From Mytilus edulis (lineage: Eukaryota): a stretch of DNA of 64,000 nt. The position numbers and the translations under genes were made by a program. Below are positions 8,801 to 57,244 of the stretch, piece by piece; the stretch's first letter is position 1; each line of letters opens with the position of its first letter. Location of the stretch: assembly GCF_963676685.1 (NCBI RefSeq), contig NC_092345.1:25916001-25980000 (forward strand), written 5' to 3'. The notes under the pieces were generated by a model. It was not told the origin of the DNA and searched no databases. It saw nothing but the letters and a program-made list of their open reading frames with translations.

Positions 8801-11800
8801 AAGAACCCCATTTATTCAATTTTTGATGAAATCAAACAAAGTTTAATTTTGGACCCCGATTTGGACCAACTTGAAAACTGGGCCAATAATCAAGAATTTA
8901 AGTACATTTTTAGATTCAGCATATCAAAGAACCTAACTGATTCATTTTTTGTCAAAATCAAACTAAGTTTAATTTTGGACCCTTTGGACCTTAATGTAGA
9001 CCAATTTGAAAACGGGACCAAAAGTTAAGAATCTACATACACAGTCATGACAGTTAGATTCAGCATATCAAAGAACCCCAATTATTCAATTTTGATGAAA
9101 TCAAACAAAAGTTTAATTTTGGACCCTTTGGGCCCCTTATTATGTTGGGACCAAAACTCCCAAAATCAAACCCAACCTTTCTTTTATGGTCATAAACCTT
9201 GTGTTTAAATTTCATAGATTTCTATTTACTTATACTAACGTTATGGTGCGAAAACCAAGAAAAATGCTTATTTGGGTCCCTTTTTGGCCCCTAATTCCTA
9301 AACTGTTGGGACCTAAACTCCCAAAATCAATACCAACCTTCCTTTTGTAGTCATTAACATTGTGTTTAAATTTCATTGATTTCTATTTACTTAAACTAAT
9401 GTTATTGTGCGAAAACCAAGAATAATGCTTATTTGGGCCCTTTTTTGGCCCCTAATTCCTAAACTGTTGAGACCAAAACTCCCAAAATCAATCCCAACCG
9501 TTCTTTTGTGGTCATAAACCTTGTGTCAAAATTTCATAGATTTCTATTCACTTAAACTAAAGTTATAGTGCGAAAACCAAGAAAATGCTTATTTGGGCCC
9601 TTTTTGGCCCCTAATTCCTAAAATGTTGGGACCAAAACTCCCAAAATCAATACCAACCTTCCTTTTGTGGTCATAAACCTTGTGTTAAAATTTCATAGAT
9701 TTCCATTCACTTTTACTAAAGTTAGAGTGCAAAAACTAAAAGTATTCGGACGCCGGACGACGACGACGCTGACGCCAACGTGATAGCAATATACGACGAA
9801 AATTTTTTCAAAATTTGCGGTCGTATAAAAAAGGCAACTCGAAAAATCAAAGCCTTAAAGGCTGTAAAAGCAATTGCTGCCATGTTAATGTTTGGGGACT
9901 TTTATTTTTCATCCACATATATACAAGAATTAAACCTGACATGAGTGTTGTCTAGTTAAAAGTAAGAAGGTTTTAACTTTATATAAATAAAAGACTTTAG
10001 CAGAAAGTCATTTTTAATATGTTTTATATTTCACAAGGAGACAACACGTTTACCAGGCTAAAGTTGGGGTCAAATATACATGTGCTGAAACATATAACTC
10101 AAAAAGAAATCATCATGGATTATCCCCTGGTAGTGTTTGTAACTTCCTTGGCAATAATTTCCTTTATTGATTTAATTTTAACAATTTTCATTATTAATTT
10201 ATATTTAACCATTAACACAAATGATTAAGTTAAAACATTTCAACTTTCCAGACGCAAATGTTAAAAAACGGGAAAGAAATAAAATATCTTACAAGACATA
10301 AACATGTAAAGAATAAATGTATATTTCAGCTTAATAAAAATATTTTCATAATGTTACTTTGTCATCATTTTTAAAACTAAGTTCCAAACATTATTGCTCA
10401 GTTGATATGTGTCCTTCTGATGCGGTACGAGCACAGGCACTTGTTTCTATCCATAGGAAGGTCGATTATCCATATAAATAGTTTTATATGGATAGTCGAC
10501 CTTCCTATGGATAGAAACAAGTGCATGTGGGTACGAGATAACTACAATTCTCATGCAATCCCGAAAAGGGGGGGGGGGTCATCACAGACAAACATGACAT
10601 TAAATCGTTATCACTGAACTAGTATATATATTGTATAGGGGCCAGCTGAAGGACGCCTCTGGGTGCGGGAATTTTTCGCTGCATTGAAGACCTGTTGGTG
10701 ACCTTAATTCTGCTGTTGTATGTTTTTCTATGGTCGGGTTGTTGTCTCTTTGACAAATTCCCCATTTCCATTCTCAATTTTATTATACGAACAAGAACAA
10801 ACAGCTCTACGTTGCTTTGATATTTATCAATTTTCAGGAAACATTGCGAAAAATGATCTTCAATATTTCGAAAACATGTGAAATAAAATTGCTAACACGG
10901 TGGACCGTCGAGGGTACAAGTCAAATCGGCACCTGGTCAAATCGGCACCCATAGAAAAAGTCAAATCGGCACCTGGTTAAATCGGCATCTAGTCAAATCG
11001 GCACCTATTTAAAGTCAATTCGGCATCCAATAATATTTGATATAATATATGGGACTGGGACTATTATGCTAAGTTAGTAAGTTAAGTATACTAGCATAAT
11101 AGTTCCAGATATATATAAATAATTCTAAAAATGTATAAATTCGATCCTGATCTATTTTGGGGGTTGGATTTAACATGCATTACATGTTAAAAAGCATCAA
11201 GGAGTTAAAATACAAGTTAATTATTTAAAGTTTTCTCGACGTACTTTTTTTCAATCTATGTATTAATAAACTAGAAAATTCCAAATTGTAAATATCTCTT
11301 CATCTGGACCGACTTGGCATCTACTACGTTTGGACGGGTCCATTTCATTAGTAAGGTGATCGATAAATATTACGGAGTTTTGACAGAAAAGGAAAACGAA
11401 CTTATTGTTATGTGTTTTCAACAAGGGTTTCGTTCCGCTAAATTATTTGCGCAAATAAAGTTTGTCTATTTTTAGATTACAGGTAATAATTTGACACTAC
11501 GCATTAACCTGTGTAGTGATTTTGATTTTATGATAAATGTATGAATGAACGATAATTTTATGAATGAACAAGAGCACCTGACCTCTTAAAGAAACACAAA
11601 TTTAACATAAAAAAACGTATTTATTAGGAGATAATTCAGTTAAATTTTCAATACTAAATCAACAACTGAAATGAATCCATATTTTGTTGAAACATCGTAC
11701 GAACGGCGGAAAACGGAATCGCATTTATGAAAATGTACTTTTTTTCACTCGGACTTCTATGTTATTTGATAGTCAAACGGTTGACCCTTTAAATACAAAA

Positions 11801-20700: not shown

Positions 20701-23700
20701 GATATGTTTATGTGCGTACACTTCTTTTGTTGTAGTAACGATTTAACAACTGACATTTCTGTGACAACTGCTTCATACGACAACCACACGAGTAGGTATT
20801 AAATATATACGATTTAGTTTCGTATTATTATGTTCAGGTTACTGTCTAGATAAAGAGCAACATACATATCGTTTTTATAGTTGTAAGTATATTGTACAGT
20901 CGTACGCGAAACAAAATATAATGTGTCGCATTATATTCTTTTTGAAAGAGCAATAACTAATCAAAAGCCGAACAAATAATAAATAAACAGCTGCGTCATG
21001 AGCGCATGATACGCACGTCGTCTTGTGTGTGAATTTTTATGCAATAATCATAAATAGTTTCTGACATACGGCGCGACATGTGAACCCCCCCCCCCTCTTT
21101 TTTACAAAAATAAAGTTTTAAACCATCAGCAAAAAGTATACAGATCTTTAGATTAATATAACTAAGAAGAGTGTAAAGTCTTAAGCATTAATCATAAATT
21201 GTTTTTGAAATACAGCCCTGTTTTAATTACAGTTTTAATCTTATTTTCACCAAAAAGTATACAGATCGTTTGACCATTATTAGAAACAGCAATGGTAAGT
21301 TTCATGAAATTTAGATATTAAGTCATTCTCAAGTAACGGTGCGACAGACAGACGGACAAACGGACAGACGACATTTGTATACCATAATACGTTCAGTCAA
21401 AATTTTGACGGGCGTATAAAAATATTACAATGATCAATAAGGTGAATTTTTGCAGATATACTAAGTCTTGTTTTACGTTTTTGATCATCTTCAATCTAAC
21501 TATATTTTCAGCACTTTTGAATTATTCACAATTACAGACTGAGACAATGTGGCTAATGTATTACGGTAAGTTAACTTATGTCAAACGCACTCCTGGAAAG
21601 ATAAAGTTGGATTTTTATTTTTCTGAATGTTTGACTAACAAGCAATGATATCAGTATGGTATTATATTATCCTCATCTTTCCTTTTCGTTATTGTAACAT
21701 CATTAACGTACGAACAAACTGTTTGGATCACTACATTTAGATATCAAGCTAATGTTTCTGTAGTAACACATTTTTGTTTTGATCAAGTTTCGTGCATTGA
21801 GGGTAAGATTCTCGCATTTAATTTTGTGATGTTTTGTTAAAAGCTTGTTTTACATGGAACTATTGCGTCCCGAATGCATATTTCACCAAACAGGGAATGT
21901 AAATTTATTTATGGTCAATTTAAACCATCGTGAATTGCATTTTCAATTTAGACAATGCCTTAAAACAAGTTTAAACTACCAAGTAATGTGACGGTATGGC
22001 GATGTTATAACAACAATAATGATACGCGAACTACGATGCAATGTAAAGACGTTGCCAAAACGAAAAAGACGACTTCAACGTTACAGGACAGTGAAACTAT
22101 TCAGATTCAGGGTTGTATTTTTATGTACAAACTGGACAGAAATCCGGAAGATACTTATAACTGGTAACTTTCCCTCAAATTTTTTTATAACACGACTGCA
22201 TATGTAATCAACATCTTAATATCAAGCTATGAATATTTCATTTCAGAGTGTATGGCTGCAGGTGCCCTTTTTATAGCTGGTTTGATATACTTCCCTGATA
22301 AACCACCAACCCCTCCTAGTTATACTGCTTCTGTCAAGAGGATAGAATATACAAATGCTTTAGGCAAAATTATAAGGTAAGATTTATAATGTCAATAAAA
22401 AACGAAAAAAAATCATTTTATCATGCGTCGATCCGTAGATCTATTGGATTTAACTCGTCAGGAACGCCCAAAGACGATTGTTTGAAGGCCAATGATGTGT
22501 AACAAGTTGTAACAACCGAAACAGTTGAAGATCTACAGAAAAATGGTTTCAAATGTATTTGAATTAGAGAACAAGTTTTGCCGCCTGCTTACCAATTAAA
22601 ATACATGAACGATTTCTGTATAATTATATGACTTCTTTCTATTTTAAAAGTCTATGTTTAAAAGTCTGAACATAGAATACTTGTTTGTGGTAGCAATGAT
22701 TTGATATTGCCCATCATTCGTTATTACAAGACAAAATAGATCTACATTGTTCGTTATTATCAATAAACAATAATAAATGTCACAACTGTAAAAATTTGTA
22801 GAACGAAATTCAAATTGTAGGAACTTAAAATACTGAAAATATTTATCTTTTGAAAATATTACAAAACAAGAATGTGTCCAAAGTACACAGATGCCCCACT
22901 CGCACTATCATTTTCCATGTTCAATGGACCACGAAATTGGATAAAAATATAATTAGGCATTAAAATTAGAAAGATCATATCATAGGGAACATGTGTACTA
23001 AGTTTCAAGTTGATTGGACTTCAACTTCATCAAAAACTACCTTGACCAAAAACTTTAACCTGAAACATGCACTTTCATTTTCTATGTTCAGTGGACCGTG
23101 AAATTGGGGTCAAAAGTTTAATTTGGCTTTAAAATTAGAAAGATCATATCATAAGGAACATGTGTACTAAGTTTCAAGTTGATTGGACTTCAACTTCATC
23201 AAAAACTACCTTGACCAAAAACTTTAACCTGAAGCGGGACAGACGGACGAACGAACAGACGGACGGACGGACGAACGGACGAACGGACGCACAGACCAGA
23301 AAACATAATGCCCCCCTACTATCGTAGGTGGGGCATAACAATATTGTTTTATGGTTAACTTATAATTCATATTTCCAATACAGCTTCTTTTTAAGACTAA
23401 ATCACAAAAACAAACCGGTTTTTTTCACGAAATGTTTCAATTGTTTTTCCATAGGAGTGGTCCTGTATGGTTAATCTCACTAGCTTACGCATTACCTGCG
23501 GGTGTTTATGGTGTTTGGGGTTCAGTATTAGATGTTATTCTTAATCCAGTTGGTGTTAGCCAGGCAAGTTTTTCTTTCAACAGTGGTGTCAACGTGTGCT
23601 ATGTTCAGAGATCTGCAGTGTGATTACATTTCAAACCATAGCCTTTGATCTTTCCCCCTATTTTTGCTTCGCGATAGCAATACTCAGATGAGCAGGGGTT

Positions 23701-26700: not shown

Positions 26701-27233
26701 CGAAATAAAACGTTTAACTATTCATGACGAAAGAACCCTGCATGAGAATGTTGCAAATTACGTTTGAAAAGAAACTAAAACAAAACAGTGTTATGGAATA
26801 TAAGGTATCTTTGATGACTTGTTTTCACAAATGACTGAGACGATGACACTGTTGGTTGAGGTTTCCTCCCCAAGGGCATCCTCAGATCAGTAGTCATCAC
26901 TTTTGTGTTGACATTGTTGGAGAAACCTAACACAAAAGAATGTATAAGCATAACACATAATGATAATAAATATTAAATGTAATATCTGAAATATTATATT
27001 GATTAACAGGAACATCTTGGATGAATTGGACATTGTTAGGTAGTATAGCTGTTGGACTGCTATTTATGTTTGCATTCCCTGAATCATATGGTAGAACTGA
27101 CTTAGATATGGAAATAGATATTCCAGCTCCAACTGAAGAGGAAAAGTCTATTGTTTTTATACCAAACGGTTCAAATAAAATCATAGTGAATGACGATATT
27201 TTAACAACTACTCATGATATAGCATCAACATGA
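17739..27233 (+). CDS. SLC49A4: SLC49A4/DIRC2-like lysosomal major facilitator superfamily transporter, 12 coding exons, ~505 aa
   Basis: Exons: 17739-17997, 18768-18858, 19297-19460, 20013-20073, 20736-20791 (least certain, needed for phase), 21512-21565, 22247-22376, 23455-23563 (GC donor), 24265-24332, 24877-24995, 25589-25771, 27010-27233; 1518 nt in frame. Family motifs: YTRRWWVLAIFS, WNTWGPI, WFPLDQRATATAI, YFPDKPPTPPS, GWIGF, ARFAD, PLFYELSCEVSYPIAEG, WMNW, YGRTDLD. N-terminal ENEPLI fits the [DE]xxxL[LI] lysosomal sorting motif. An AG acceptor at 17731-17732 implies an upstream non-coding exon. Confidence 0.92.
18980..19272. repeat. Tandem duplication, 2 x ~145 bp, in SLC49A4 intron 2
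   Basis: GACATTCAAACTAAT...AGTTGAAAATAAACTGCAATG...CTTAAGAAGTTTT..TCAGTCTATGA is repeated at ~18980 and ~19124. Confidence 0.85.
19468..19654. mobile_element. Foldback MITE family A, internally deleted copy (187 bp), TA TSD
   Basis: Same termini as 7278-7720, with the centre deleted. Begins at intron position +8 after the exon ending at 19460. Confidence 0.9.
20985..21421 (-). mobile_element. Non-autonomous Helentron-type (HINE-like) element
   Basis: Terminal palindrome TGCGTCATGAGCGCA, subTIRs ATACGCACGTC and GACGGGCGTAT, GACA/GACG microsatellite at ~21343-21370. Confidence 0.75.
22864..23338 (-). mobile_element. Non-autonomous Helentron-type (HINE-like) element with two ~167-bp tandem units
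   Basis: Hairpin TGTGTCCAAAGTACACA, subTIRs ATGCCCCAC and GTGGGGCAT, repeat units at ~22902 and ~23069, (GGAC/GAAC)n microsatellite at 23238-23290. Confidence 0.85.
24390..24503. repeat. Minisatellite, ~5 x 21-22 bp (AGAAATACAAGTATAATGTTA)
   Basis: Direct tandem copies in the SLC49A4 intron after the exon ending at 24332. Confidence 0.8.
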
Positions 27234-27429: not shown

Positions 27430-27990
27430 TAAAAAATGACACAGTTCAACTATCTCCTAAAATAGCAAATATTAATAAAAAAAAAACCTGACAACAAACA
27501 CACTTTTAGTGCCAGCAGCCAGCATAATGAGAGCATTCGAATTGTATGAAGAATTATCCGGAAACGCTATGCAAGTAAATACTAAAATATAGATGACAAA
27601 GTTCAACTATCTCCTAGAAGAGCAAATATTATTAAAAAAAAAATCCCAGCCCACATGCACACCTTCATTATATGTTCAAACAGCAGACAAAGTGAAAACC
27701 TCCTAGCATTCAAACTGTAGGAGGAGCTATCCGGAAACGCTATGCACCACTTATGCAAGTATGTCCTACAAAATAAGAAAGTTTATCTATCTCCCAAAAA
27801 AGCAAAATTCAATACAAATCAAAACCATGACTGCATGCACACCTTCAATATATGTACAAACAGCCAGCAAAGTGAAAACATCATATCATTCAAACTGTAG
27901 AAGGAGTTATCGTGAATAACTATATAACCACAATGAGAAGAACTGACACACGGACGGACGGACGGACAGAGGTAAAACAATACCCCCCAA
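27430..27990 (-). mobile_element. Truncated HINE-like element with three ~160-180-bp tandem units and a (GGAC)n microsatellite
   Basis: AAGTTCAACTATCTCC-like motif at about 27441, 27598 and 27778; GGACGGACGGACGGAC at ~27951. Confidence 0.7.
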
Positions 27991-28850
27991 CTTTTCTACT
28001 TGCATCAAATTAACAAAAATGTGCTATTGATATCATTTCTTGATATAACTACCACATGTGGTTTCAGGATTAAAGCCACTGATCACTTGCGTCGTATATT
28101 GAAATTTAAAATGTTTTTGTTTGTTCCAACAGAAAGACTGGTTTACTATTGTGAATGTGATGTCTTCAATTAAAATTATGTTGATTTTTCTAATCTTCTG
28201 TCAAACTGTTTTTTTACACGAATTCTAATTTTGTCCAAAAACATCATTTTGATCTTACAATGATCAATGTCATTTCATTGTGTTGGACATATTTGAAACT
28301 TAACAATTGAAATATAAGACAGGCTTACAAATACTTAAATCAAACAACCTATAGCAATGTATGCCACATTCTCAACAGCCTCCATTGAAATAAAATAAAA
28401 AAAAAACGTTTTCTCCTTAGTGAAATGGTTTTGCAAATGGATTAAATATATAATATCCTTAGCGTGTAGTTTCTTTTAATATTTTGACTTTTGTCATCGT
28501 CCAAACAACCCATATGTAGTTTTAACGTTTAGTAGTAACGGTGGTCGTCCAATAACAACCAAATGTGATTCATTTTTATGCATTAGTTGAAAGTGTATAA
28601 CATTTTGTCGGAAAACATTTGCAAATCGAAACATGATTTACATAGTTCAACATAGAATACACTTTGATACATCTACTGAAGCGTATTATGTTGAAACACA
28701 AGTCATGTAGCAATAACCGGCATTATGCAAAATGTCTGACAAAATGAAAACAGCTAGTTAACAAAATTCATACTTTCAAAGACTTTTCCAGATTTACTTT
28801 CATTAAGGAAGCTCAAATAGTTATCAAAGGTACAATGATTATAATTTAAT

Positions 28851-28894
28851 ACGCCAGACGCGCGGTTCGTCTACATAAGACTCATCAGTGACAC
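28851..28894 (-). ncRNA. Minimal type I hammerhead ribozyme motif (copy 1; A15.1 changed to C)
   Basis: GUGUCA CUGAUGA GUC UUAUGUA GAC GAA C CGCGC GUC / UGGCGU. The GUC cleavage triplet is intact, but the core reads GAAC instead of GAAA. Confidence 0.85.
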
Positions 28895-29025
28895 TCAGAT
28901 CACAATAGTTATAAAGGCCAAACAAGTACAAAGTTGAAGAGCATTGAGGACCAAATATTCCACCAGCAGTGGCATCAAACCAGTGGTGTAAATAGTAATC
29001 AAAGGTACCAGGATTATAATTCAAT

Positions 29026-29069
29026 ACGCCAGTTGCGCGTTTCGTCTGTATAAGACTCATCAGTGGCAC
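29026..29069 (-). ncRNA. Minimal type I hammerhead ribozyme motif (copy 2; cleavage triplet GUC changed to AAC)
   Basis: GUGCCA CUGAUGA GUC UUAUACA GAC GAAA CGCGC AAC UGGCGU. The catalytic strand is intact and the substrate triplet is mutated. Confidence 0.85.
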
Positions 29070-31957
29070 TCAGATCAAAATAGTTATAAAAGCCAAACAA
29101 GTACAAAGTTGAAGAGCATTGAGGATCCAAAATTCCAAAAAGTTGAGCCAAATACGGCTAAGATTATCTTTTCATGGGATAGGAAAATCCGTAGTTTTTT
29201 AAAAAAATTCAAAGTTTTGTAACAGGACATTTATTAAAATGACCATATAATTGATATTCATGTCAACACCGAAGTGCTGACTTCTGGGCTGGTGATACCC
29301 TCGGGGACGAAACGTCCACCAGCAATGGCATCGCCCCAGTGGTGTAAATAGTTATCAAAGGTACAATGATTATAATTTAATACGCCAAATATTTGAAAAT
29401 CAAGGATGTATAAAAAACCAAAACAATTGTAGAGCTATATAATCCAAAGGACTTAAAATAGACAAATTCATCTGAGGTCAACTTAACATGTTTAATAAGT
29501 CTGGAAACATGGACAAATTGATTTTTGCACCATTTCCCCGAACAAATTTATAGTGTTCAAAATTATACAGAAGATATAGCATATTGCATACTTTCAAGTT
29601 AAGAGGGTGTTTTGGATTAATGTTTTTTTTTTAATAACTTTCATGTCGATAAACGAGAAGTCTTCATCCCCATTGTTTTCTTTCTAAAATCAATAAACTC
29701 TTGTACCCTTTTTTTATAAGTAAATTTGCGGGTGCAGACCTTATGCACCTGACGCAACATTGATAAGTAACAAGGTATGCTCGTTGATGATTATTGATTT
29801 TATTAATAAGGTAATCAATTATGGCTTGAAATTATTTTGTCGGATTTTTTAACTTCTTTGGTACAGAAAATGTTGCTTTAAGTACTTTCATTTTAGCTAA
29901 CGCTTTTATTGCAAAAGCATTGTTTCTTTTATATTTACTTTACATTAAACATTACTTTAGAAATATAAATAAAAAGTATGGATGATTTTATATAATAATC
30001 AGAACATTCAGAACGAGTGAGTGATATCATATCTGTTATTATGTATAATATGGAATGACAAAAAAAAAACCAATAAAAGAGTGATAATTTCTAAAGAAGA
30101 TGATGAAATCCTCAACAGGGTCATCTGGTAATACTTTATGATGAGGTCTATCGCTGGTCCATATTTGGTCTTTGTTACTTCAACAGAAACAAGAGACGGG
30201 AATGTTAAAAAAATGTTTGAAGAAAAGAAAGAAAAAGAAAACATTAGAAAAACAATAAGGTCTTTCCTCACGTAGAGGAAATACCTTAATAAGGAATAAA
30301 TGAAGTACTGTTTTCCGTTAATTGTGAAAACCACCCATGCATCAATTATGTGTTACATTAACGTTTAAAGACTTTAAAGGGTATACAATATATATTGAAA
30401 TTTGAAACTCCTATAGCAATTGAAGTGTTTAAACTTCCGTGTTAAATAAAGTTTTATATACAAAATAGCATTATTTGCATAGGAATAATGAATTGCAAGC
30501 TGTGTTTTTACATTGTCGCATTTCTATTCTTTGAAAACTGTGAGTATTTAAACATTAACCAATCTTATGAAGGGATGAAAAACATAATATTATTAATTAA
30601 TTTGATTTCAAAAACGTCTTTTAACACAATTTTTGGGTGGGGTACTAAAAGGAAGTTACACCATTGATGTACGATGAAACACGATGCCTATATTTCGGGA
30701 TAACATTATATAATGAACAAAAGGAGCACGCAGTGAAGCAGTAGAGTAATTCAGTACAAAAAAATAAGTTTTATAATTTCTTTTCAGTTTTGATAAAACT
30801 GAAAAAACTCTTTTAAACAATCTTGATCATTGCAAATAAATCGTTTAAAAAACTTCAATGAAATCGTATTGAAGAAAAATTTCTCGATTTAAACGAATGC
30901 TTTTAGAGCAAATATAATAAAACATGAAGTCACGCTTGATATTTACTAAAGTGGTATATTGCATCCACTTTTTACAGCAATATTGTTCATAAAGCTGACA
31001 AATTAAAATATTTCCCTACAAGTTTTCTCTTTGGCATCACCTCCTTATTGGAAAAGTAAATTATTCTGCTTGTATTCAATCGTTGCATCTGTGTTTTGTT
31101 TTTAGCATTAATTCAATAATTCATATTTTGAACAATACAAACATTTTTTTCGGAGTCTTTGAACCATACTACAGATAGTGTCTTTTTGACTCTTAATGAT
31201 ACTGCTAGCACTTATGGTGTAAGAAATCCACTGTGAAATTCAGCAACCGATATAAAAGTACAAAAAGGCGTACATACCAATCACCAGCTTAAGTACTTTG
31301 CGCTTAAATTTCTTAAATATTCACCGTTGATGTTCGAGTACTGTGCTTCTCCTCTGATTAACTTTAGATTTAGTATTTGTATTATTTTTTTTTGTGTATT
31401 ATAAATTGTGAAATAATCAACTCTTGTATATGTGGAAGTTGAAATATGTTTGAGAGCATGATATGAGTTGGCTCCCGGAGGACAAACATTGCCACTCATC
31501 TGGATAAAACACCCTTAAGAAAGAGTTCCAATTAAAGATGCGTCGTCATTTATGAAATGTAGTTAATATTCCAGCTAAATGAAATATGTTTTCTGTATTG
31601 TCTTCTTCCTTAGATAATCATGATAGGTAATATTTTTGATTTGTGTTACCATAATTAGCTGATCTTTTACTAATAAGATATACTAGTAAACTACAATGAC
31701 TTGTAATTGAAGATTATCCAGGAAGTTTAAATTCTTTTGAATTCATAATCATCATAAGTTTAAAACATTGACCTTTAATAACAGCAATAACAAAGAACAT
31801 GTTGCATGATAGAAATAACTTTTTTTGGTCTCGTGGTAATTTTAAATGTGTATACTTATATATATACATACCTTCTTTGTAAGATAAAAATTGTTGCAAT
31901 ATATTAACGATTTCTAAGGTTTGAATGAAGTTTACTCCAATTTTCAAATCCTGAAAG

Positions 31958-33784: not shown

Positions 33785-34426
33785 TATTTTCCTACCTAGC
33801 CTATATTATATGCTTAGAAATAGACTACCTTAAAGAGTTTTTGATACTTTTTCAATAAACACTGTTAAAAGTCAGATTTTCTCACCCAAAGGCTCAATGT
33901 GATTGTTTTCTGTAAAATAATAAAATTCCATGCCTACCTACCCTATTTTTTTCCAAACATGTAATATGAAATACACATATTATTTTATTTGGCCTGATAA
34001 AAAAAGGAAAAAGTTATAGCAAATAAATATTCTAATCTTTTGTGAGTCCAGTTAACACTTCTGTGTTTACATGCCTTATGAATGATATTGTCATATTTAT
34101 ACGTTAATTAATTACAAAACTATGAATTATTCGACATACTGACGATTAACTACCCAGGGAATACATTATCGTAGTTGTATTTGGCAAAACCTTTTGGAAT
34201 GTTTGGTCCTCAATGCTCAATTTCATTTGCCTTTTTCTCTTTTCTTTAACCTTTTTTTTGTATCTTGAGTACACATTATAGGTCTGGTATCTTTGAAGAG
34301 TTTATATATACATATATTTCTTGACTTACTTGCACGAACAACATCCTGTGGATAGAACTTTAACCCAAGTGATGACATACGCGCGAAAATAAATATCATT
34401 ACGATTGTCTTTGCCTTATTTTAAAG

Positions 34427-37400: not shown

Positions 37401-40400
37401 TCCTAAACGGACAATTTGAGAATGGACGCTATAATTCATGTTAATGCCGAGGTATTGAAAACTGATGTGATAATTAGAGATTTTCTAGTGTTGAATTAGT
37501 AGCAAGTATGTTCAGTTTCTATTGCCCAAAAGTAAGTTATTTGCCTCTCTGTTAAGCTTAACGCCACGCCACCTTCACCTCTTGTTCGCCTGCATATGTC
37601 ATATTTGTTTTGAGGCTTTTAATTATCGTCCTGATTACGAGTTGTGATTCCTCTTTTAGACTTTTCTTATAACTACACTCAAACTATACCCTTGTGGTTT
37701 ACTTAACCAGAAGAAATAATCCACCAATGCCAACATATTCTTGATTCGAGTTGTGACACTTAAGTGGGCTCCATAAGTTAACTTCATCAGAGGAAACAAT
37801 CCACCACTGCCAGTTCTGTAAAAAACATACATTTTTTTACATCCAAATTTGGAACTGACTACTCGTGGTACTGGAAGCAGCACACTTATTTTTGTGTTGA
37901 AATTGTGACCTTTTTGTTCTGAAACTTTATTTGTATTTGTTTTCGAAAATTCTTGATGTTTATACGGGATATTCGGGATACATGATTTCTTTTTGATTAT
38001 TTTTAGTTCTGAACTAGCTTTCAGTAACTGCTTTTACTTTTAATTACATCTTGATAATCCTATATTCTGCAGTTTCTTTAACCACTGTCCCAGTGTAGGG
38101 AATGTTTTTTATTGTAGTTTTGTACATTAATAAAGCCGTTGGATTTTCGTTTGAATTGCTTTATAATTTGCTATGCAGAATGAGGTTTTCTCACTGACAA
38201 ATGTTGTACGGTGACATATAGCTTCCAACATCTACGCTGGTCTCTACTTGATAGTTGTCTTATTGGCAATCCTATAACATATCCTTATTTTATAATACAC
38301 ATAGTTGTTACCGGATCTTCTACCTGTTTTGAGGCTAAGTTGAAACATATGTTTAAAATTTATATAATGCAAAATACTCATCTCACTTAAAACGTAATAA
38401 AACGAAGGCAGTGATGCATCAGCGACGCTTAACAAAAGGTTTCATTAATAATCCTTTATTAAGAGCTATACTAACTTTATCAACAGAATGTAGTTTAATA
38501 TATTATAAAAGAGGGGCAAAAGATACCAGAGGGATATGCAAACTTATAAATCGAAAAAAACTGACATCGCCATGGCTTAAAAAGACAAACAGACAAACAA
38601 TAGTACATAAATTACAACATAGGAAAATAAAGACTAAGCAACACGAACCCTACCAAAAACTGGAGGGAAACCTCAGATGATCCGGAAGGGTAAGCGGGTC
38701 CTGCTCCACATATGGCATCCGTCATGTTGCCCATGTTAGTGCTAACCTTACAATAATTATAATCCGATAGTCACAATATAAGTTAATTCAAAAATTGATC
38801 AAGGGCAGATGCAGAAAAATATAACAAAGAAGATCGCATAAATTTTGATTTGAACACTTTGTAGCTATTGTTCAGATATGCTGATATAACATACATTTTC
38901 AAGATTCGTATTTGCTAGTTATTTTCCAAAATAATTTTAAAACATTTCCCTACATTTATTTTACAAACAAGATAATTTTCTTTAATCTTTTGAATGTGCA
39001 CTCTAGGTTCTTAGCAGTAAAGCAGCATGTGTGTACGAAGTCGTTGAAACTAAAATTGAGTTATCATATAGTTCTTGCTATGCAACATCAAACAGAACAA
39101 GAAATGTGCTGTATTATTTTAAAGTTTACTAAAACTGATAAACGTATGTGTGTATTACATTGATTTTGATTGATCTCTATTTCTAAAAGTGTTTAAAATA
39201 TTGGAAATCAGCTTCAGATTTCGATTCTGTCACTATAACATTTTTAGAAAACTTGTAATTGATGTTTGTAATATTCCTCATTTGGTCCTCCGATTTATTC
39301 AAATATTATATTCAGATTGTCAAACGTTTTTTTCTTTTTTTTCACAAATTAGAAGCTTTACTTTCCTTTATCTACAGGTTTTTCTATGTGTTAAACAAAG
39401 AATGTTAGCAAGATGGAGAAACGCGCGTCTCTCGTACAAAACTATAAGCTTAGTATCTGTTATGAACTAATTTAACACTAACCCCACTTCAACTAACTCA
39501 TCAAAGAATCCAGGCCTATAATTTTGTAGGACAGATACCCGTTTCGTCTACAAAAAACTCATCACTGTTGCTTGATTAAAAGAATGAAAAAGTATAATAA
39601 AGTACGAAGTAGAAGAGCATTTGGAAACCAAAGTTCAAGCGAGGTTGAGCAGTTCTAACATTACTTGTTGAACCAGTCTCCTTGCTGGTAAATTTCAAAG
39701 TTTAATGTACGAGGACTTTTAACAGTATTTTCTTCTGGTTGTAGGGTAACAGTTGTTATTGTATACCTGATAATTATTCATGGGAGACAGATCAAAGTAA
39801 AGTAAATGATTCAATGTGCAACAAGACATGTGGAGAAAATATGCAGGACTCTTGTGGTGGCAATGGGTATATAACTGTTTATAAGACGGGTACGTCTACA
39901 TTTAAATACATATCTATTAACGACGATCCGCCTCACAAAATATCATGTCGTTTTAATTTGAAGTGATATGGATATAAGAAAATAAGGTTTGATTGTCAAT
40001 GAACCAATTATCCATCAAAGTTTTAATGAAGTGGATATAAGCAATCAAAAGCAACCCGACAAAATTCAACAATCAGAAAGCATCATATCGTATAGCTATA
40101 AAAGGCCTTGAAATGATGAATATGAAACAACTTAATTTAGAAAACTACCGGTCTAATGCATAACAATTTAATGCACAACGATTTTCGAAAAACAAATATG
40201 ACCGACATGAACCAACGATCACAATTGATCTACAGGCTTCTGACTTTGGACATGTACAAAATGCATGTCAATGTTTTTTAATGTTTATCCGCCTGCTTAC
40301 CTGTGACTGTAAAAGTTATCATTTATATTATTAGTGTCAAATAGTATAGTGCTTGACAGGGATGATGAGCCAGACAAAAATTCTATAATGTGTGGTTGTA

Positions 40401-43400
40401 TGGAGTGCACCAACAACGGATGGCTATACTATGGGTATTCTTGTAACCAATCACTACAGACGACTTGTAGTAAGTAATTTGTATCCATACTGTTTTTAAA
40501 ATGACTATTATGCAACATGTTGCAGGCTCCATTGTAATACAAATTTCTTTTCTTTTTATTTTGAATACGTATTATTGGAATCACGCATTACATTGTAAAT
40601 CTAAAATTTTCGATTTAATTTTTCACTTCGTGTATTTTGGCATTATGGGGTTAAATGTTTTGCATGTCAATCTGAGGTATTTTTCTTTTATTTGTGCCCA
40701 AAATCTTAATCTTGTATTTTTGGGCTAATTTATCTTGAAAAAAACTTTTTGGAGATCGACTTATCTATGCTATTGTTTTGTTTAAAATATTTTCGCGGTT
40801 TGTCTGTGAATTATCTTATATCATGCAAGTAAGCAAATACTATGAATGAAAATGCAAAATCGTTTGAGGATAGTATTCTTAAAAATCTTCTTAAATGTTT
40901 CTTAATCTTTTAAATAGATGACAAAAGCGAGATAGAATGTAACAGAAATTGGAATGAAGGTAAAGAAGCTTGCTGGTCCGATCAACAATCGTTTCTCTTA
41001 GCTGGAACAAATATCGATTCACGTTGTGACAATACGACAAGTAGAGCCCCGGTTTGGATAGGTCTTTACAGGCGTAAAAGAACTCAAGTTGTGAAAGGTA
41101 AATGTCCAGTCTTAATAAATCTATTCACAGCTTCTGTTAACTCATGAATACTATAATTACATATGGTATTCAAAACTGTCAACTGTAGATGTTTCAATTG
41201 TTATTGTGTTTTTTTTTAAATTTCCTTACATATCAGCATCAATTTGTTGTTGTGTTTGGTGGAATGATATTTCTACAGATGTTTGTAACATAGGAAGCAT
41301 AGTTTCCAGTAGATGATAACGTTAAGTTTCAAATACTGAATTATTCTTTACTCTTTTTTTCTTCCGACTTTTTTCTTCTATGATTGTTTATGGTGAGTCT
41401 TGTGTAGGTGACACGAATGTCTGGCATACCAAATTATAAGTCTAGCAACTTTAATGAGTTTTCGTAATACTAATATACCTCCTTCTAATGACGATGAACC
41501 TATCAAAATTGTAACTCTTTTCAGCGTTTACACTTATAAGGTTTATTATTCCTTTGATATCTTTCTCCTCTATTGAGCATGAATCCTTTATCTATTTAAA
41601 TTCTATGTTCTAACGTATATGAGCAACAGCTGCAATCTCAATATATTTTGTCATACACTGTTTTAATACAGCAATATTGATGCTGTTACTGAATCTCATT
41701 CAATGCATTCGTCACACCCCCCCCATGCGAATCAACCCTTTATTTAAATGTCCCAAACAACATTCTTGTATCCATTGCCCTGAAACAATGGAAACATGCT
41801 TTTAATGAGTTCAGAAACAGACACATCATATCAATCGTCCCTGTTCCTTTTGTGTCATCGTGTATAATAATATATTTGCGTGATTTCTAGTAGACCTTTT
41901 CAACTTGTCTCGACACCGACTAATGACACCTACAGTTTACAGGTAAAATGGGTGGGTCGTCTCAAAGACAAAAAACATCATGATTATCAATACGTAACAT
42001 ATTGGATTGGCGGTTATATACTGTCTTGACTATATAGCTTCAGAATATATATCAACCAAATAAATAAATAAATATATGTCTCTGTCATATAATATTCTTA
42101 TTTTGTATGTATTTACACGACATTTTATGTTGGATTGATTAAAACAAATACAGCAATCATTCTGCATCCTGATCCACTTTATCTTCAATTTTATGATTAA
42201 GCGAGTCTTTTACCAAATATTTGCCGCATGTAAATAACGATTCGTTTGTTTATGTAAAAGCTTTTATTCCATTTATGATCCGCTGCATTTCCAGGAGGAC
42301 TGTTCTCCTTAGAGACAAATTTATCCAAATCGTCATCCTTTAGTTACACCATTTACAACACCTCAAATTAATTGTAAAGCATAACATTTGAGAGAAAGAG
42401 CAGAAAATTTAATCGCGTGATTGGTGAATACAAAATTCAAGTGGAACATAAAATTGGTGAATTGAAATAACTGTTACATTATGGAGGCACCCAAAGCCAA
42501 AACTAACAGACATTGTGGAAACATGTGCCGCTCTTGTCAACAGAGATATTTATGATAAAACATTGATTAATTAAATATCAACTACAATTAAACATGCTTT
42601 GATCTTTTCATTTCCCAAATTCCACCAGGACCGCTAGAAGCTCAACGTCTAAAAAGATGAAATGTGACTTAAAGTTCATCATTTTCTTTATAATAAATTA
42701 AAAAAATCCATGTTATTTGGACTCTGTAGGAAAGCTATATCATTGTCAATGAAAGCAATAAAATCAATAATGATTTTAATTTTTTAGAGACGACCCCTCA
42801 CATTTTACCTGTCGTAGTCGTTCTCAACTGTAGGTGTCGAGAGATGTTGAAAAGGTCTACTGAGACTACATCGTCACATATACACGGAACAAAGATTTAG
42901 AGTAAATAGGTCAAAGGATCATCCTAAATAAAACGAATCATTTACATTCTAATCTGTTCCTTTGAGGTTGTAAACAAAACTCACAATCGTCACAAATGTC
43001 CTGTGTTTGATAATGCTTGTATCCTTCACATATACTCAAGGTCAATGCTTTCAATGCAAATACATTTTGTATTTCCCGATTCCTATTTCCAGTTTCTGGA
43101 ACAACAATAACAAGCATGAGCGTGGAACTGTATAGTATGCAAAAAAGGAGATGCGACATATTTCTTCCTGTGCAATCATTGTAATTTTAAAGCAATACAG
43201 ATATCATATATAACAAAGATTACTTGTGTCATTAACAGAAGAAGAGTCATCAGTATCTGCAGTTTCTTGTTTTCATGGGATGCTTACTGCTGGTGTTCTA
43301 AGTATAGACAGTAACTTAAATTGTACAGCTCAACTTCCATTTATATGCGAATTAGGTAAGAAAAAGTAAACAAATTTGAATATTATATAAAGATATTTAT

Positions 43401-46400
43401 TTAAATTAATGCAAGCATTTATTTACAGTGCAAATTTAACAAAACAGAAAAAAAAAATCGAAATGTAAATTTAAAATAACAACAGATAAAATAATGTGTA
43501 TAGGTTTAATTGATTACAACAGATCAAATATTATTCAATCTCTTTTCGATTTTTTGCATATAGCGTAATTTCTTTCTCTTTTACATTTATGCCATAATTA
43601 CAACCTTCCATCTTTTCCTATAGTGAACTTTCCATTTCTGTGTAGCAACATCCCAGCGGCACCAGCATATGGAGTATATGTGTCTTAATTGATATGTTAC
43701 TCTAGAGCTAGCTCAAAGTACGCTGATTTTGTTGAACGAGGAATACTGCTTTCTCAAAAGTTGATAAGACAGGGCTATGAATCAATCAAATTAAGGTCAT
43801 CACTCAAGAGAAATTTTACGGTCGCCATCATGAGCTGATTGGCCATTATGACAAAAGTGTGTCAGAAATCATATCTGATATTCTTCCTCAGTCATAATAA
43901 CCTTCCATCATTACCGAACTGAACAAAGAAATAACACGACCGGTGCCGTATACGGTGCAGGAAATACTTACCCTTCCGGAGCACCTGATTTCACTCCCGG
44001 TCTTTAATGGAGTTCGTGTTGTTTCTTATTTATTATTTATAACTGTTGATGTAAATGTCCTTTGGTTTTGTGAGTCTTTGTTTACTCCTTGGTTTTTATT
44101 GTTATTGTCTTCAAGTCTTTTATTAATGATTTTTGTAGAAAGCTTATCACTGGTTGTCCCGTACATTACATGCGTTTACATAAATACACTTATATTTTGC
44201 GAATCAAAAATGCTTGGAATTAGTTAAGTTCATGGTAAAAATGTTAATATAGACTTATCACCAGGTTTGTGCTTGCATTAGCGTCACGACGGGTGTCATT
44301 TGTAGAGAAAAGTATGCTAACCCTTCCGTAGCACCTGCTTTAAACCCTGGTTTTTGGTGGGGTTCGTGTTGCTCAGTCTTTAGTTTCGTCATTTTTGTTT
44401 TTTGCCATAAAGTTTTCAGTTTATTTAAGACCATGCTTTTGAATTCTTTAGTGTTTTTCGATCCTTTTTGAAAAATATATATTGTAAAACTATTCTCAAT
44501 ATTAAATCAGATACAGAAGACGTTTTGTCCTCTGATTGCTATGTATATCCACCAGAGCATGTAACAACAGAGTTAACAACAGTAGAAGAAGTAACAACAC
44601 AAACAAAATCTGTTGACATAACAACGCCTGCAAGCGGAACATCACAACCAAAGAAGTTAACTGATGATAATGATGACATTAGCCCAGGTAATTTATGAAA
44701 AGAAGACTTCATGTAATGTGTTATTTATCTAATATATGCTCCGATGGGCGTAAAAATATGTGGTGGATTTTTTGTTAGAATTTGATGATTCGAATTTGAT
44801 TCAGTACGATTTTGTTTTATTTTACCATATTGCTTCAATGTTTTAAAATGTTAACGATAAGGTTACTTTGGTTGCAAGATTTATTGATAATAACGTCAAG
44901 AGGAAACTATTACATGCTAGTTCGTGTGTGTAATTGTTTAATCTCATATGAGTTGAGACTTTGATATCTTGTAATGATTATATTGTACTATTGTATACAA
45001 GTCAAGTGTGTCTTAATCCATTTTTTGTTTGTAACAGATGAGCATTATAGAAAGTTTTATAGTAAAAAGTCTTCTTGTGCTTTGCAAGTTGTTTGCTAAT
45101 TATTTTGTTTTTCTATATTTTGTATAGGCGCAGCTGTAGGTATTGCGTTTGCAGTAGTTTTACCTACCCTTCTGGTCATTGGTACTATAATCTGTCACGT
45201 GGCATGTGGACAAAAGTATGTGTTACTTATAATAGACATTCTTACTCTTGTATTTATATAGGCACCACTTACAAGGCAGTTTATCAAATATATCGTTAAT
45301 TATGTGCAATGTGGAATGAGGGTAACAAAACCTTCGGGAGTTCTCATTTGATTGGAGGAACCTACCAGTAAACAGTTTAAGATAAAACAATTAGAATGTA
45401 ACTATTATTTTTATTTCCTTTCAGGTCTTATAGCTCCTCATTTTTCAGGTATTCGGACATACTAGCCTAGTTGGCATTAATTTTTTGGGGGTTTGAGCGT
45501 TCCTGTTGTCAGTTTAATCCAGAAAATCGCTTCAGACAAAATAAACTTATAAAATGTCACTTTCAATCATAATTCTCAAAATCTCATCAGAGAATTTTAA
45601 AGAAAAAAGAGGGACGAAAGATACCAGAGGAACATTCAAACTCATAAATCAAAAATAAACTGACAACGCCATGGCTAAAAATGAAAAGGACAAACCGACA
45701 AACAATAGCACACATGACACAACATAGAAAACTGAAGAATAAACAACACGAACCCCACAAAAAACTAGGGGTGATCTTATGTGCTCCGGAAAGGAAAGCA
45801 GATCCTGCTCCACATGTGGCAAATGGAAAGTTCACAATTGGAAAGCTGAAATCATCTCTTTTGTTGTAAAGTTTTGTTTTCAATCGACCCTCATTGTCAA
45901 TTTCTAGATTTAAGTCAAAATATGAGGCCGACTTAACTGTATCTGTTGTATCCTTTATCTCTAGTTCAATGGGATAGATGCATTCGACATAGTCACCACA
46001 TTTTGAATTATTTAGTGAAAGAACATCATCTATATAGCGGAATGAAGAGGGGCACAATTTATTCCCATTGGAATGCCGATAGTCTGTTGAAAAACACGTC
46101 CTCCGAACGTAACAAGTATGTTGTCAATCAAGAAATCAAGCATCTTGATAATGTCAGTTTCAGAGAATTTTTTGTTTGAATCAGAGTGATCCTTTACAAA
46201 GTAGGATTTATCCCTTCCTAAGACAAGATACTTGTATCTTCGTTGACCATTCTTTTTTGTATTAAACAAAGCAATACCAACTCTATCAATTTGTCTTTTA
46301 GTTTGGAATGTGGAATATTTGTATAAAGTGTAGAAAAGTCAAATGTTTTGATACTATAACAAGATGAAAGAGAGTTAGATTGCATGTACTCTAAAAGATC

Positions 46401-47816
46401 TTTCGAATTTTTAAGTATCCACATCTGATTCACGCCACCTCAAGAATATGCAGTTTCACAATAACTTTGAAGCCCGTCTTGATTGCTGATAAAATAGATG
46501 TTCTTAATTTAGAAAGAGGTTTGTGGTGCACTTGGAAGACCCAGCAATATACCGTTGTGTGTAAGGACACTTATGGAAGGTCCAGTTCATCATCTTTAGA
46601 ACTGACACAACAGTACATTATACATGCATCATACATAAGTGATTAACTATAGTTCTTTCTTCATTGGAGACGCTACTCTTATACCATTCGAATTATCTTC
46701 CTTTGATTATAAAAATAATAAATACGACACTTGAGTCATTGAATTAAATATGCTATACTCATTGTGCATCCATCAATAAGATGCTATTGAGACAAGCACG
46801 AATCTTACGCTGAACAAGAAAAGCAGTCACGGACAAAATAGCCATCATAATAGTTCAAACCCTAAACCTACTTTGCTTCTCTAAGGTGATTCTCGAAACA
46901 TGTCGTGAGCAGTAAATTTGGAAGTACTGTGTATCTTACTACGAATATGGCTGCTAAAGGGCGGGATTACCCAGACGATACCAGCCTTCTAGTATACGTT
47001 GTTTTTGTTAGTATTTATCAGATACAAAAATGTTAGCTTTAAGTTTATGAATAATTTTAATTGAAGTTACTTTAATAAAAGTCACTATAATTGAAGTTTT
47101 TAACTCAAATGTCTAACTCTGATCCTTTCGGTATGGGTACTTACATCATTTGTGTACTTTGTTCATGTTGTTGTCGTACCTCGACATCTTATATGTTATT
47201 GTAGACAATCATATCATGCCAAGTGATTTTTTATAATTTACTTATATGACAAGACGCTGCTGTATATATTGTAAAAACATATAGAAGAATAATTATGCTG
47301 TAAAAAGGAAGAAGATGACCACGGTAATGAAAAGCCACAAGTCGAAGGTATACATACAACATGACGGAGAAAAGAAAGATAAAACAGAGGAGGACTAAAG
47401 ATTGAGCTAAACGAATATCACAAATCTATATCGTTATATTTAGCCGATTTCAGTATCTTACTCTATTATTGTCCCATTTTTATTTTAGGCCAACTGAAAG
47501 AAAGCCGGAGGATAAAGTTGAACTTCGAAAGAAAGAGGAATATTATATTCGCCCTTCTAGCGAGATGTCAGAAATAAATATACGATATTCATTGTTTGAA
47601 CAAGAACCGGACAATAAAGAATCCGATAGTGGAATTGGAGAGAATAGCAATGCTTCTGTTTCGTATGAAAAATCACGAGATGGTCACGTGTCGACATTTA
47701 TTACAATACCAAAAGTACAAGCACCAAATGGTCCAGGCATAGAAGCACCAAACGGTCCAGACATACCCGTAGATAATGTGTTAGTTAATGACGATGATTT
47801 GGTTACTAAGTTATAG
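34427..47816 (+). CDS. Single-pass membrane protein with C-type-lectin-like domains and a WSC domain, Thr-rich stalk, TM helix and cytoplasmic tail (5' exon not located)
   Basis: Phase-compatible GT-AG exons: 34427-34621 (TWDSARDDCLQRGGDL...FWVG), 34865-34962 plus 39745-39889 (WSC: GCS...CVDNC..FFG..GNSCYC...CNKTCG.....CGGNGYITVY), 40335-40469 (CGCMEC...YSCNQSLQTTC), 40918-41097 (NWNEGKEAC...VWIGL), 43239-43355 (C...NCTAQLPFICE), 44511-44687 (Thr-rich), 45128-45215 (TM AAVGIAFAVVLPTLLVIGTII), 47489-47816 (tail, stop). About 487 aa without the first exon. Confidence 0.85.
35568..35734. repeat. Minisatellite, 4 x ~43 bp (ATAGACGAAAACGCTTAGTACATCCGTAACCAATACCATTTAA)
   Basis: Contiguous head-to-tail copies with no unique spacers. 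Confidence 0.9.
38508..38740 (-). mobile_element. 3' non-coding end of the Penelope-like retroelement family (truncated or non-autonomous copy)
   Basis: Matches 45605-45820 (AAGAGGG..AAAGATACCAGAGG...CAACACGAACCC...CCGGAAGGGTAAGC...CCTGCTCCACAT). Another copy lies on the plus strand at ~44265-44468. Confidence 0.7.
41550..43159 (-). pseudogene. Possible decayed secreted Cys-rich gene (adhesion-GPCR-like ectodomain) antisense within a lectin-gene intron
   Basis: Signal-peptide-like start MSHLLFCILYSSTLMLVIVVPETG and Cys cluster DICDDCEFC...LECK*. Further stop-ridden fragments lie beyond the 41889-42861 insertion. Family assignment is by pattern resemblance only. Confidence 0.3.
41889..42861. 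mobile_element. Non-autonomous DNA transposon (~970 bp) with ~80-90-bp imperfect TIRs
   Basis: AGTAGACCTTTTCAACTTGTCTCGACACC...ACAGGTAAAATG...GGTCGTCTC is mirrored at 42787-42861. TSD not resolved. Confidence 0.75.
43605..44120 (+). mobile_element. Penelope-like retroelement fragment (RT C-terminus plus 3' region), degenerate
   Basis: Translates FPIVNFPFLCSNIPAAPAYGVYVS*LICYSRASSKYADFVERGILLSQKLIRQGY then, after a frameshift, FYGRHHELI..YD. Followed by the family's CTTACCCTTCCGGAGCACCTG tail. Confidence 0.8.
45605..46615 (-). mobile_element. Penelope-like retroelement reverse transcriptase pseudogene with internal deletions
   Basis: Fragments: LHKCPYTQRYIAGSSKC; MWILKNS...TFDFSTLYTNIPH; FGGRVFQQTIGIPMGINCAPL; FRYIDDVLSLNN...ASYFDL...LKTKLYNKRDDFSFPIVNFPF. 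They are frameshifted and joined to the 3' tail. Confidence 0.88.
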
Positions 47817-48339: not shown

Positions 48340-48540
48340 AATCTCATCATAGATACCAGGATTGAAAATTTGTATTTACGCCAGACGCGCGATTCGTCTA
48401 CAAAAAACTCATCATAGACGCTCGTATCAAAAGAAGTTATATAAGCCAAATAAAGAACGATGTTGAACAGCATTGAGGACCTAAAATTCCTATTTTTTTG
48501 CTACAATACAGCTAAGGTAATTTATTTCTGATTTAGAAAA
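48340..48540 (-). mobile_element. Degenerate retrozyme relic with mutated hammerhead core
   Basis: Minus strand reads GAGCGUCU AUGAUGA GUUUUUUGUAGAC GAAU CGCGC GUC UGGCGUA (48378-48423), with flanks homologous to the 28815-29387 unit. Confidence 0.75.

Positions 48541-55964: not shown

Positions 55965-57244
<1,280 letters not shown>

What the first reader, a model, noticed from the sequence alone, without database searches (positions are those of the whole stretch)
28815..29387. Retrozyme locus: tandem ~356-bp units with minimal type I hammerhead ribozymes
Seen in sequence: tandem units carrying CUGAUGA, a 3-bp stem II, GAA and a palindromic CGCGCG stem III on the minus strand, with no ORF. 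Established knowledge: such non-LTR retrozymes are described in metazoans including Mytilus, yield small circular RNAs, and their ribozymes resemble those of Penelope-like elements. Nothing in the ORF track explains this locus, and it is the clearest self-processing RNA system in the window.
Basis: partly seen in the sequence, partly recalled or inferred. Interest (0 to 1): 0.7.

Follow-up and report, generated by a model that had tools for sequence, protein, structure and literature searches.

The report
Decayed mussel retrozyme with Naiad signal
This is a worn-out copy of a known mussel repeat that carries a self-cutting RNA motif, and its family shares a predicted RNA hairpin and a fixed end point with Naiad jumping genes, which likely names the enzyme that copies these repeats.

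Summary
The locus is a real copy of the known mussel non-LTR retrozyme, but not a tandem of intact units. On the minus strand it holds one 356-bp unit, a 175-bp deleted unit and a 42-bp end piece, nested inside an older, related hammerhead repeat without target duplication. Both hammerheads here are mutated in stem III, whereas 53 of 55 sampled family units are intact; no transcript of this copy was detected. The value lies in the family. Young copies end 41-45 nt past the cut site (10 of 10 in an unbiased sample), at the foot of a 60-nt hairpin. The same hairpin (55/63 identical in one family, paired changes in another) opens the ORF of two Naiad Penelope-like families, whose copies end at the same place. 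It is absent from the ORF starts of 19 other PLE loci. Naiad reverse transcriptase likely starts there and runs round the circular RNA. A 2020 review says no such motif was known, and my searches found it in no paper; earlier notes of this scan reported it on other DNA, and I took the lead from them and tested it.

The parts
29032..29387 (-). Unit a: full 356-nt retrozyme monomer, from the base after a hammerhead cut site (q1) to the next cut site; 92% identical to the family majority sequence
28857..29031 (-). Unit b: 175-nt deleted monomer (q1-73 fused to q251-355 at a short imperfect homology); about 10% different from unit a; junction not found elsewhere among the scored hits
28815..28856 (-). 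End piece a' (q1-42): ends at the family's fixed 3' end; 42/42 identical to the start of unit a
29025..29070 (-). Type I hammerhead copy 1: stems I (6 bp) and II (4 bp) intact, cleavage triplet GUC changed to AAC, stem III lost; predicted inactive
28850..28895 (-). Type I hammerhead copy 2: stems I and II intact, GAAA changed to GAAC (A15.1-U16.1 pair lost); predicted inactive or weak
29278..29350 (-). Bulged hairpin shared with the 5' end of two Naiad families; the fixed 3' end of insertions lies at its foot; likely recognition signal for the Naiad reverse transcriptase
28959..28994 (-). 5' half of the same hairpin in unit b, cut by the deletion
29388..29484 (-). 5' part of the host element: an older, related hammerhead repeat (family B), 5'-truncated at about 29484
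28741..28814 (-). 3' part of the host element, with a decayed family-B hammerhead, ending at a T-run equivalent to the family end

Best explanation
The locus is a decayed, likely inactive genomic copy of the mussel non-LTR retrozyme, inserted into an older related repeat, and the family is likely copied into the genome by Naiad Penelope-like reverse transcriptase. Shown: intact family members carry a type I hammerhead in ~355-bp tandem units and are transcribed; young insertions share one 3' end 41-45 nt past the cut site, at the foot of a hairpin that also opens Naiad ORFs, where Naiad copies end too; 5' ends are scattered; most insertions run across the cut site. From the literature: mussel retrozyme transcripts self-cleave and accumulate mostly as circles (PMC7229834), and a PLE protein starts reverse transcription inside its RNA (PMC11167929). 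Inferred: the Naiad protein binds the hairpin on the circle, nicks AT-rich DNA with its GIY-YIG domain, starts cDNA just 5' of the hairpin and runs round the circle for a variable distance. Here it produced 573 bp, joined to the target through short homologies (TGGC at the 5' end, TTT at the 3' end) with no duplication. Odds by step: family membership 0.98; this copy not self-cleaving 0.9; Naiad as helper 0.8; internal start on a circle 0.6.
For: Family and core. Fixed 3' end: 10 of 10 young non-edge insertions in 600 kb sampled at even positions; 33 of 38 in search-selected loci; RNA reads break off into unrelated flanks at the same place (loose ends at L014 1532-1535). Across the cut site: 8 of those 10 insertions span it and none stops at it. 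Units within an array 99.1% identical, between arrays 94.7%. Naiad hairpin: a model built from 16 retrozyme hairpins only hits 2 of 2 ORF starts of the abundant Naiad family (86.2 bits) and 11 of 11 of a second family (25-30 bits), and no ORF start in 19 loci of C-terminal-endonuclease PLEs (read); 55/63 identity; 4 of 13 outer pairs change on both sides (3/500 shuffles). Naiad ends at the hairpin foot: 11 of 11; 8 of 10 end-motif occurrences in the abundant family stop within 4 nt, the other 2 run on into hairpin and ORF. Host repeat and junctions. HHR-sense transcription 5.7:1 and 5.3:1 if the libraries are of the usual stranded type.
Against: No binding or reverse-transcription test was possible. 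Covariation rests on 7 related sequences; with all 23 pairs only 3 change on both sides (32/500 shuffles). The hairpin could mark an RNA end or a promoter instead of an internal start. Only two Naiad families and about six other PLE families were examined, chosen from the top GIY-YIG hits, so another PLE with the hairpin is not excluded. Short reads cannot tell circles from tandem read-through. The perfect identity of the two terminal 42-mers, against ~10% difference between units a and b (chance about 0.015), does not fit a single monomer circle followed by independent ageing. The 3' flank alone found no relative in the genome search and scores above shuffles in only 11 of 20 host copies. The whole circle is not unusually stable (z -0.64).
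Confidence: 0.72

Rival explanations
1. Same Naiad helper, but the hairpin marks an RNA end (a processing cut or a transcription start) at q42/43. The enzyme would start at the 3' end of a linear RNA and build tandems by jumping from the 5' end of one RNA to the 3' end of the same or another.
For: In L013 a family-A dimer sits in a family-C array with both switches at the hairpin foot; L006 and L019 show restarts at q44 inside arrays. The odd a/b/a' pattern here fits jumps between two templates.
Against: No pile-up of read ends at that site (table 6; fragmented libraries are a weak test). Circles dominate in mussel tissue (PMC7229834). Arrays are internally homogeneous (99.1% against 94.7%). 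Internal initiation is shown for another PLE (PMC11167929).
Confidence: 0.17
2. The family is mobilised by another PLE or LINE, and the shared hairpin only records descent from a Naiad 5' end or a borrowed promoter; tandems grow by DNA-level duplication, as proposed for vertebrate retrozymes.
For: Preprint 10.64898/2026.07.22.740005 derives vertebrate retrozymes from PLE pLTRs and invokes local amplification; hammerhead-bearing PLEs are present in this genome, while Naiads lack hammerheads (PMC8557442).
Against: The hairpin is kept at the same distance from the cut site in four retrozyme families with different hammerheads, the element ends coincide with Naiad ends, and the sampled hammerhead-bearing PLEs have no hairpin hit at their ORF starts.
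Confidence: 0.08
3. One reading: this locus is itself a working self-cleaving unit that yields a ~356-nt circle.
For: Stems I and II and the CUGAUGA core are intact in both copies; a full monomer lies between cut sites at 29387 and 29032.
Against: Stem III and the cleavage triplet are mutated in both hammerheads; unit a has no hammerhead at its 5' side; 108 of 108, 109 of 110 and 123 of 124 laid reads fit only in part and the flanks have no depth (about 6% of each run, other individuals).
Confidence: 0.03

Closest known systems
Mytilus galloprovincialis non-LTR retrozyme (PMC7229834; sequence drawing in PMC4918200 Additional file 11)
   Same: Type I hammerhead with the same arms, core and cut site; 350-390-bp tandem units; low GC (39%); no ORF; same hairpin downstream of the cut site (visible in the published drawing).
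   Different: This copy has broken ribozymes, an internal deletion and is nested in a sister family. No target-site duplication here or in sampled arrays (the paper reports longer TSDs 'when present'). The papers name no helper and no fixed end; the 375-nt drawing resembles the sister subfamily D more than this one.
Naiad Penelope-like elements (PMC8557442)
   Same: Shared 5' hairpin, 3' ends at its foot, 5' truncation, tandem and inverted arrangements in some loci.
   Different: Naiads encode an N-terminal GIY-YIG endonuclease and a reverse transcriptase and lack a canonical hammerhead; the retrozyme has the ribozyme and no ORF. The parts of the paper I searched mention no hairpin or stem-loop (0 occurrences).
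Anolis Poseidon PLE, internal initiation of reverse transcription (PMC11167929)
   Same: Fixed genomic ends that match a start site inside the RNA, downstream of a hammerhead cut site, at a stem-loop; AT-rich targets.
   Different: Autonomous element of another clade; start sites 111-118 nt into the ORF; two start sites give a 'tail'; linear templates tested.
Vertebrate non-LTR retrozymes as PLE derivatives (preprint 10.64898/2026.07.22.740005)
   Same: Links retrozymes to PLE terminal sequences.
   Different: Vertebrates, hammerhead-bearing pLTRs; no mollusc, no Naiad partner, no start signal or fixed end in the parts read.

Membership tests
Metazoan non-LTR retrozyme (mussel family) | Type I hammerhead in each unit | tested here: met
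   Family: 53 of 55 units intact. This locus: motif present but stem III broken in 2 of 2 copies.
Metazoan non-LTR retrozyme (mussel family) | Tandem units of 150-450 bp (mussel 350-390), low GC, no ORF, no LTR | tested here: met
   Units 352-356 bp, GC 39%; arrays of more than ten units in the genome; no ORF. This locus holds about 1.6 units.
Metazoan non-LTR retrozyme (mussel family) | Sequence kinship with the published mussel retrozyme | tested here: met
   By-eye match of hammerhead and hairpin to PMC4918200 Additional file 11; the supplement of PMC7229834 could not be read and its GenBank clones were not compared.
Metazoan non-LTR retrozyme (mussel family) | Dispersed, high copy number | tested here: met
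   6016 first-look candidates; 11 young insertions in 600 kb, roughly 25,000 genome-wide by extrapolation.
Metazoan non-LTR retrozyme (mussel family) | Transcribed in the ribozyme sense | tested here: met
   Family: thousands of reads in 3 raw RNA runs, strand ratio above 5:1 in two (direction assumes the usual stranded protocol). This copy: not detected.
Metazoan non-LTR retrozyme (mussel family) | Self-cleavage and circular RNA | not testable with these tools
   Shown for M. galloprovincialis in PMC7229834; short reads cannot separate circles from tandem transcripts.
Metazoan non-LTR retrozyme (mussel family) | Target-site duplication longer than 4 bp (optional in the paper) | tested here: not met
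   None at this locus; shared words of 7 nt or more in 3 of 37 arrays against 6% in controls.
Minimal PLE-type hammerhead | Helix III lacking its non-conserved nucleotides | tested here: not met
   Family has a 2-bp stem III with a GCGC loop and a 4-bp stem II; definition from PMC7761336.
Naiad PLE (for the proposed helpers L123 and L166) | N-terminal GIY-YIG, C-terminal RT, DKA motif | tested here: met
   L123: Pfam GIY-YIG at residues 179-269 of 1053, DKA at about 609. L166: GIY-YIG pattern at about 134 (pattern match only), RVT_1 at 645-854 (E 7e-5, below cut-off), DKA at about 555.
Naiad PLE (for the proposed helpers L123 and L166) | CxC motif, IFD and placement in the Naiad clade by phylogeny | not tested
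   No tree or motif alignment was made.
Non-autonomous partner of Naiad | Shared terminal sequence or structure and shared element end | tested here: met
Non-autonomous partner of Naiad | Mobilised in trans by Naiad protein | not testable with these tools
   Needs biochemistry or a cell assay.

The most novel reading that the evidence does not exclude
The hairpin is the start signal of Naiad reverse transcriptase, and Naiad RNA itself is copied as a closed loop without any ribozyme: each Naiad insertion carries a near-perfect second pass of its own 3' end (10 mismatches in about 4,260 nt over 11 loci; strictly closer to its own end than to any other copy in 8 of 11, tied in 3). Mussel retrozymes would be viroid-like circles that joined this signal to a hammerhead and so hijack one of the most abundant retrotransposon clades of bivalves by rolling-circle reverse transcription.
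Probability: 0.3. Interest if true: 0.82.

Novelty: new member of a known kind. Interest (0 to 1): 0.55.

Why it matters
The locus itself is ordinary and probably dead. The family result bears on an open question: PMC7761336 states that metazoan retrozymes show no conserved motif from which to deduce the autonomous partner. A shared, structure-conserved hairpin with coincident element ends names a partner (Naiad) and a start site, and turns the question into a direct assay. It would also give the first cis signal for Naiads and a small RNA tag for writing circular RNA into DNA.

Tried and rejected
Rfam: only sub-threshold hammerhead hits. A second, plus-strand hammerhead at about 29290-29320 was considered by eye and dropped: it is the reverse complement of the minus-strand hairpin. 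That the 5' end lies exactly at the cut site was considered as a sign of a linear self-cleaved template and rejected: the first four bases also match the target, and only 2 of 37 other 5' ends lie there (two more called at q1 visibly run on upstream), 0 of 10 in the unbiased sample. A second copy of the deletion junction (a source for a 531-nt composite unit) was not found among 40 scored of 489 candidates. A target-site duplication was not found. BLAST of the retrozyme against 20 PLE loci did not show the Naiad link; its hits were neighbouring retrozyme copies or short words; the link came from reading L123 and from the structure model. Whole-unit folding is no more stable than shuffles. The look-up of sequencing runs: no RNA holder listed. 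A contig of run X16 covers the 5' junction with only 28 bases on the insert side, below the tool's bridging rule, so it is not counted. The supplement of PMC7229834 could not be read; it holds the mussel hammerhead families and a mobilisation model (Figs S4, S5, S9) that may bear on novelty; supplements of the 2026 preprint were not seen.

Full report
Numbering. q1 is the base after the hammerhead cut site on the minus strand; a unit is about 355 nt.

1. What is at the coordinates. The minus strand reads: unit a (29387-29032, 356 nt), unit b (29031-28857, 175 nt, q1-73 fused to q251-355) and end piece a' (28856-28815, q1-42). Both have the CUGAUGA core, a 6-bp stem I and a 4-bp stem II. The 29063 copy has AAC in place of GUC and the 28888 copy GAAC in place of GAAA. 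By established hammerhead chemistry (recalled: NUH rule, A15.1-U16.1 pair) both should be inactive or very weak. Rfam hits are below threshold and the bare motif is not clearly above chance. No frame of 100 aa overlaps the locus.

2. The family. The window lies in a 1.37-Gb genome; a unit query gave 6016 candidates, of which 40 were scored, many in tandem arrays. Of 55 full monomers taken from 23 of those 30 loci (7 dropped as self, overlapping or mixed), 53 keep an intact core. Units within an array are 99.1% identical (109 pairs), between arrays 94.7% (1376 pairs); the window units are 92-93% identical to the majority sequence. The hammerhead and the downstream hairpin match by eye the M. 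galloprovincialis retrozyme drawn in PMC4918200 Additional file 11, so the genome is likely a Mytilus mussel (inference). In 60 evenly placed 10-kb stretches, 32 related insertions were found, 11 of them at 88% identity or more: roughly 25,000 young insertions genome-wide, a rough extrapolation.

3. Expression. On an intact monomer (L014), 5586, 6380 and 3139 reads were laid from 6-18% of three raw RNA runs of one species label; in two the strand ratio over the unique middle is 5.7 and 5.3, which means ribozyme-sense RNA if the libraries follow the usual stranded protocol; the third shows no strand bias. Depth runs through the cut site and no place has a pile-up of ends. On the window locus at 97% likeness nearly all laid reads fit only in part (108 of 108, 109 of 110, 123 of 124) and the flanks have no depth. 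These runs are from other individuals, so this is weak evidence of silence.

4. The insertion site. The 5' flank (29484-29388) is a repeat (39 other matches among 40 scored), and in those copies the next bases resemble the 3' flank (28814-28741) and carry a different hammerhead, family B. Against 20 non-duplicate host copies (9 segmental duplicates of 29 dropped) the flanks are 82% and 71% identical to the majority line; the 3' flank beats all base-shuffled controls in 11 of 20, though alone it found no relative. The host has 7 nt between the two flanks in 11 of the 12 copies where the pattern matched; the insert supplies them with its first four and last three bases. So there is no duplication and no loss, with short homology at both joints. 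Family B has the same hairpin.

5. A fixed 3' end. In the unbiased sample 10 of 10 non-edge insertions at 88% identity or more end at q41-45; over all 31 non-edge matches only 11 end in q36-48, because most diverged ones belong to sister subfamilies whose alignment to this query breaks earlier. In search-selected loci 33 of 38 end at q38-47 (49 loci listed of 60; 39 at 88% or more) and 37 5' ends scatter from q1 to q324. Eight of the 10 unbiased insertions cross the cut site and none stops at it. A linear self-cleaved monomer primed at q42 would give only 42 nt, so the template must be a circle, an uncleaved tandem, or be rejoined by template jumps (inference). RNA reads show the same end as loose junctions at L014 1532-1535.

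6. The Naiad link. Earlier notes of this scan gave the lead. I found PLE loci through GIY-YIG. L123 has a 1053-aa frame with N-terminal GIY-YIG and the DKA motif, diagnostic of Naiads by PMC8557442; its frame opens with a homologue of the retrozyme hairpin. A decayed RT in the window (about 45605-46575) led to a second, abundant family, of which L166 is full length. A covariance model built from 16 retrozyme hairpins only hits both ORF starts held for the abundant family (86.2 bits; the other 8 of 10 stretches show no ORF start) and 11 of 11 of the L123 family (25-30 bits, E 2e-4 to 3e-3; these carry a 21-nt insert). In 19 loci of C-terminal-endonuclease PLEs its three hits coincide with neighbouring retrozyme copies. 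In the 600-kb control 8 of 9 hits coincide with retrozyme copies; one (L173, 26 bits) is unexplained. The retrozyme and L166-family hairpins are 55/63 identical. In the two outer helices 97.8% of cells pair and 4 of 13 pairs change on both sides (3/500 shuffles); over all 23 pairs, without the L123 family, 3 pairs do (32/500). The sequences are related and few, so this is support, not proof. All 11 L123-family copies end in a direct repeat that stops at the T-run before the hairpin; in the abundant family the end motif was found 10 times in 8 of 11 loci, 8 stopping within 4 nt and 2 running on into hairpin and ORF. Four retrozyme families with different hammerheads keep the hairpin about 40-48 nt after the cut site.

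7. Mechanism. Shown: anatomy, family, fixed ends, shared hairpin, sense-biased family RNA. Literature: self-cleavage (kobs about 0.1 per min) and abundant circles in mussel, helper unknown, PLEs suggested (PMC7229834, parts 1-4 of 6 read; supplement unreadable); internal initiation and AT-rich nicking by a Poseidon PLE (PMC11167929, parts 1-2 of 4 read). Inferred: Naiad protein binds the hairpin, nicks the target, starts just 5' of the hairpin and circles the RNA. The main rival keeps Naiad but makes the hairpin an RNA end with end-to-end jumps; the mosaic array L013 and the restarts in L006 and L019 fit both.

8. Unexplained. The terminal 42-mers a and a' are identical and share two substitutions seen in 1 of 174 other fetched copies, while b has the common form; with a and b about 10% apart, identity by chance is about 0.015. 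One monomer circle plus ageing does not give this. Options: one pass plus 42 nt round a 531-nt composite template (rearranged units do occur in tandem, L046; no source found), jumps between two RNAs, or later conversion.

9. Novelty. The element is a new, decayed member of a known family. The Naiad hairpin and fixed end were not found in print by four searches in a library that lacks most subscription journals. PMC7761336 (passages) says no such motif was known; PMC8557442 (section 6 and passages) has no 'hairpin' or 'stem-loop'; preprint 10.64898/2026.07.22.740005 (parts 1-3 of 5) links vertebrate retrozymes to PLE pLTRs without this signal. Earlier unreviewed notes of this scan reported the same link on other DNA; they are not independent support.

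Verdict: real, known family, locally dead; interest 0.55 for the testable helper assignment.

Noticed in passing
window 45605-46575 (-): Decayed, internally deleted RT fragment of the abundant Naiad-type family (5182 candidates); it ends at the family's fixed T-run.
   Followed up: yes
window 26804-26914 (+), 34050-34218 (+), 39500-39636 (-), 41391-41455 (+), 48346-48525 (-), 48866-49011 (+), 49524-49591 (+): Seven further old fragments (74-80%) of related retrozyme families; the first holds a full hairpin.
   Followed up: partly
L013 (G000:C12:59587529-59590884): Two family-A units sit inside an array of family C, with both switches at the foot of the shared hairpin: the two families meet at the proposed start site.
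   Followed up: partly
L046/L047 (G000:C2:100703588-100707077): Array with a period of about 440 bp caused by an internal duplication repeated in each unit: rearranged units are copied in tandem.
   Followed up: no
L152-L161, L123: Naiad terminal repeats of 104-1555 bp are near-identical within each locus (10 mismatches in about 4,260 nt), as if the same RNA were copied more than once.
   Followed up: partly
L128-L131, L139, L140: A young C-terminal-endonuclease PLE family with intact ORFs of about 790 aa and its own hammerhead-like motif about 90 nt after the stop, unrelated to this retrozyme.
   Followed up: no
window 55965-56300 (-): Last exon of a homeobox gene (Pfam Homeodomain positions 44-57, E 4e-4, below cut-off), about 27 kb from the locus.
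   Followed up: no
window 27436-27980, 22902-23289, 8603-9736: Other 135-180-bp tandem repeats, two ending in (GGAC)n runs; not examined.
   Followed up: no
L173:8672-8743 (-): Hairpin-model hit (26 bits) with no retrozyme BLAST match: perhaps another Naiad start or a distant family.
   Followed up: no
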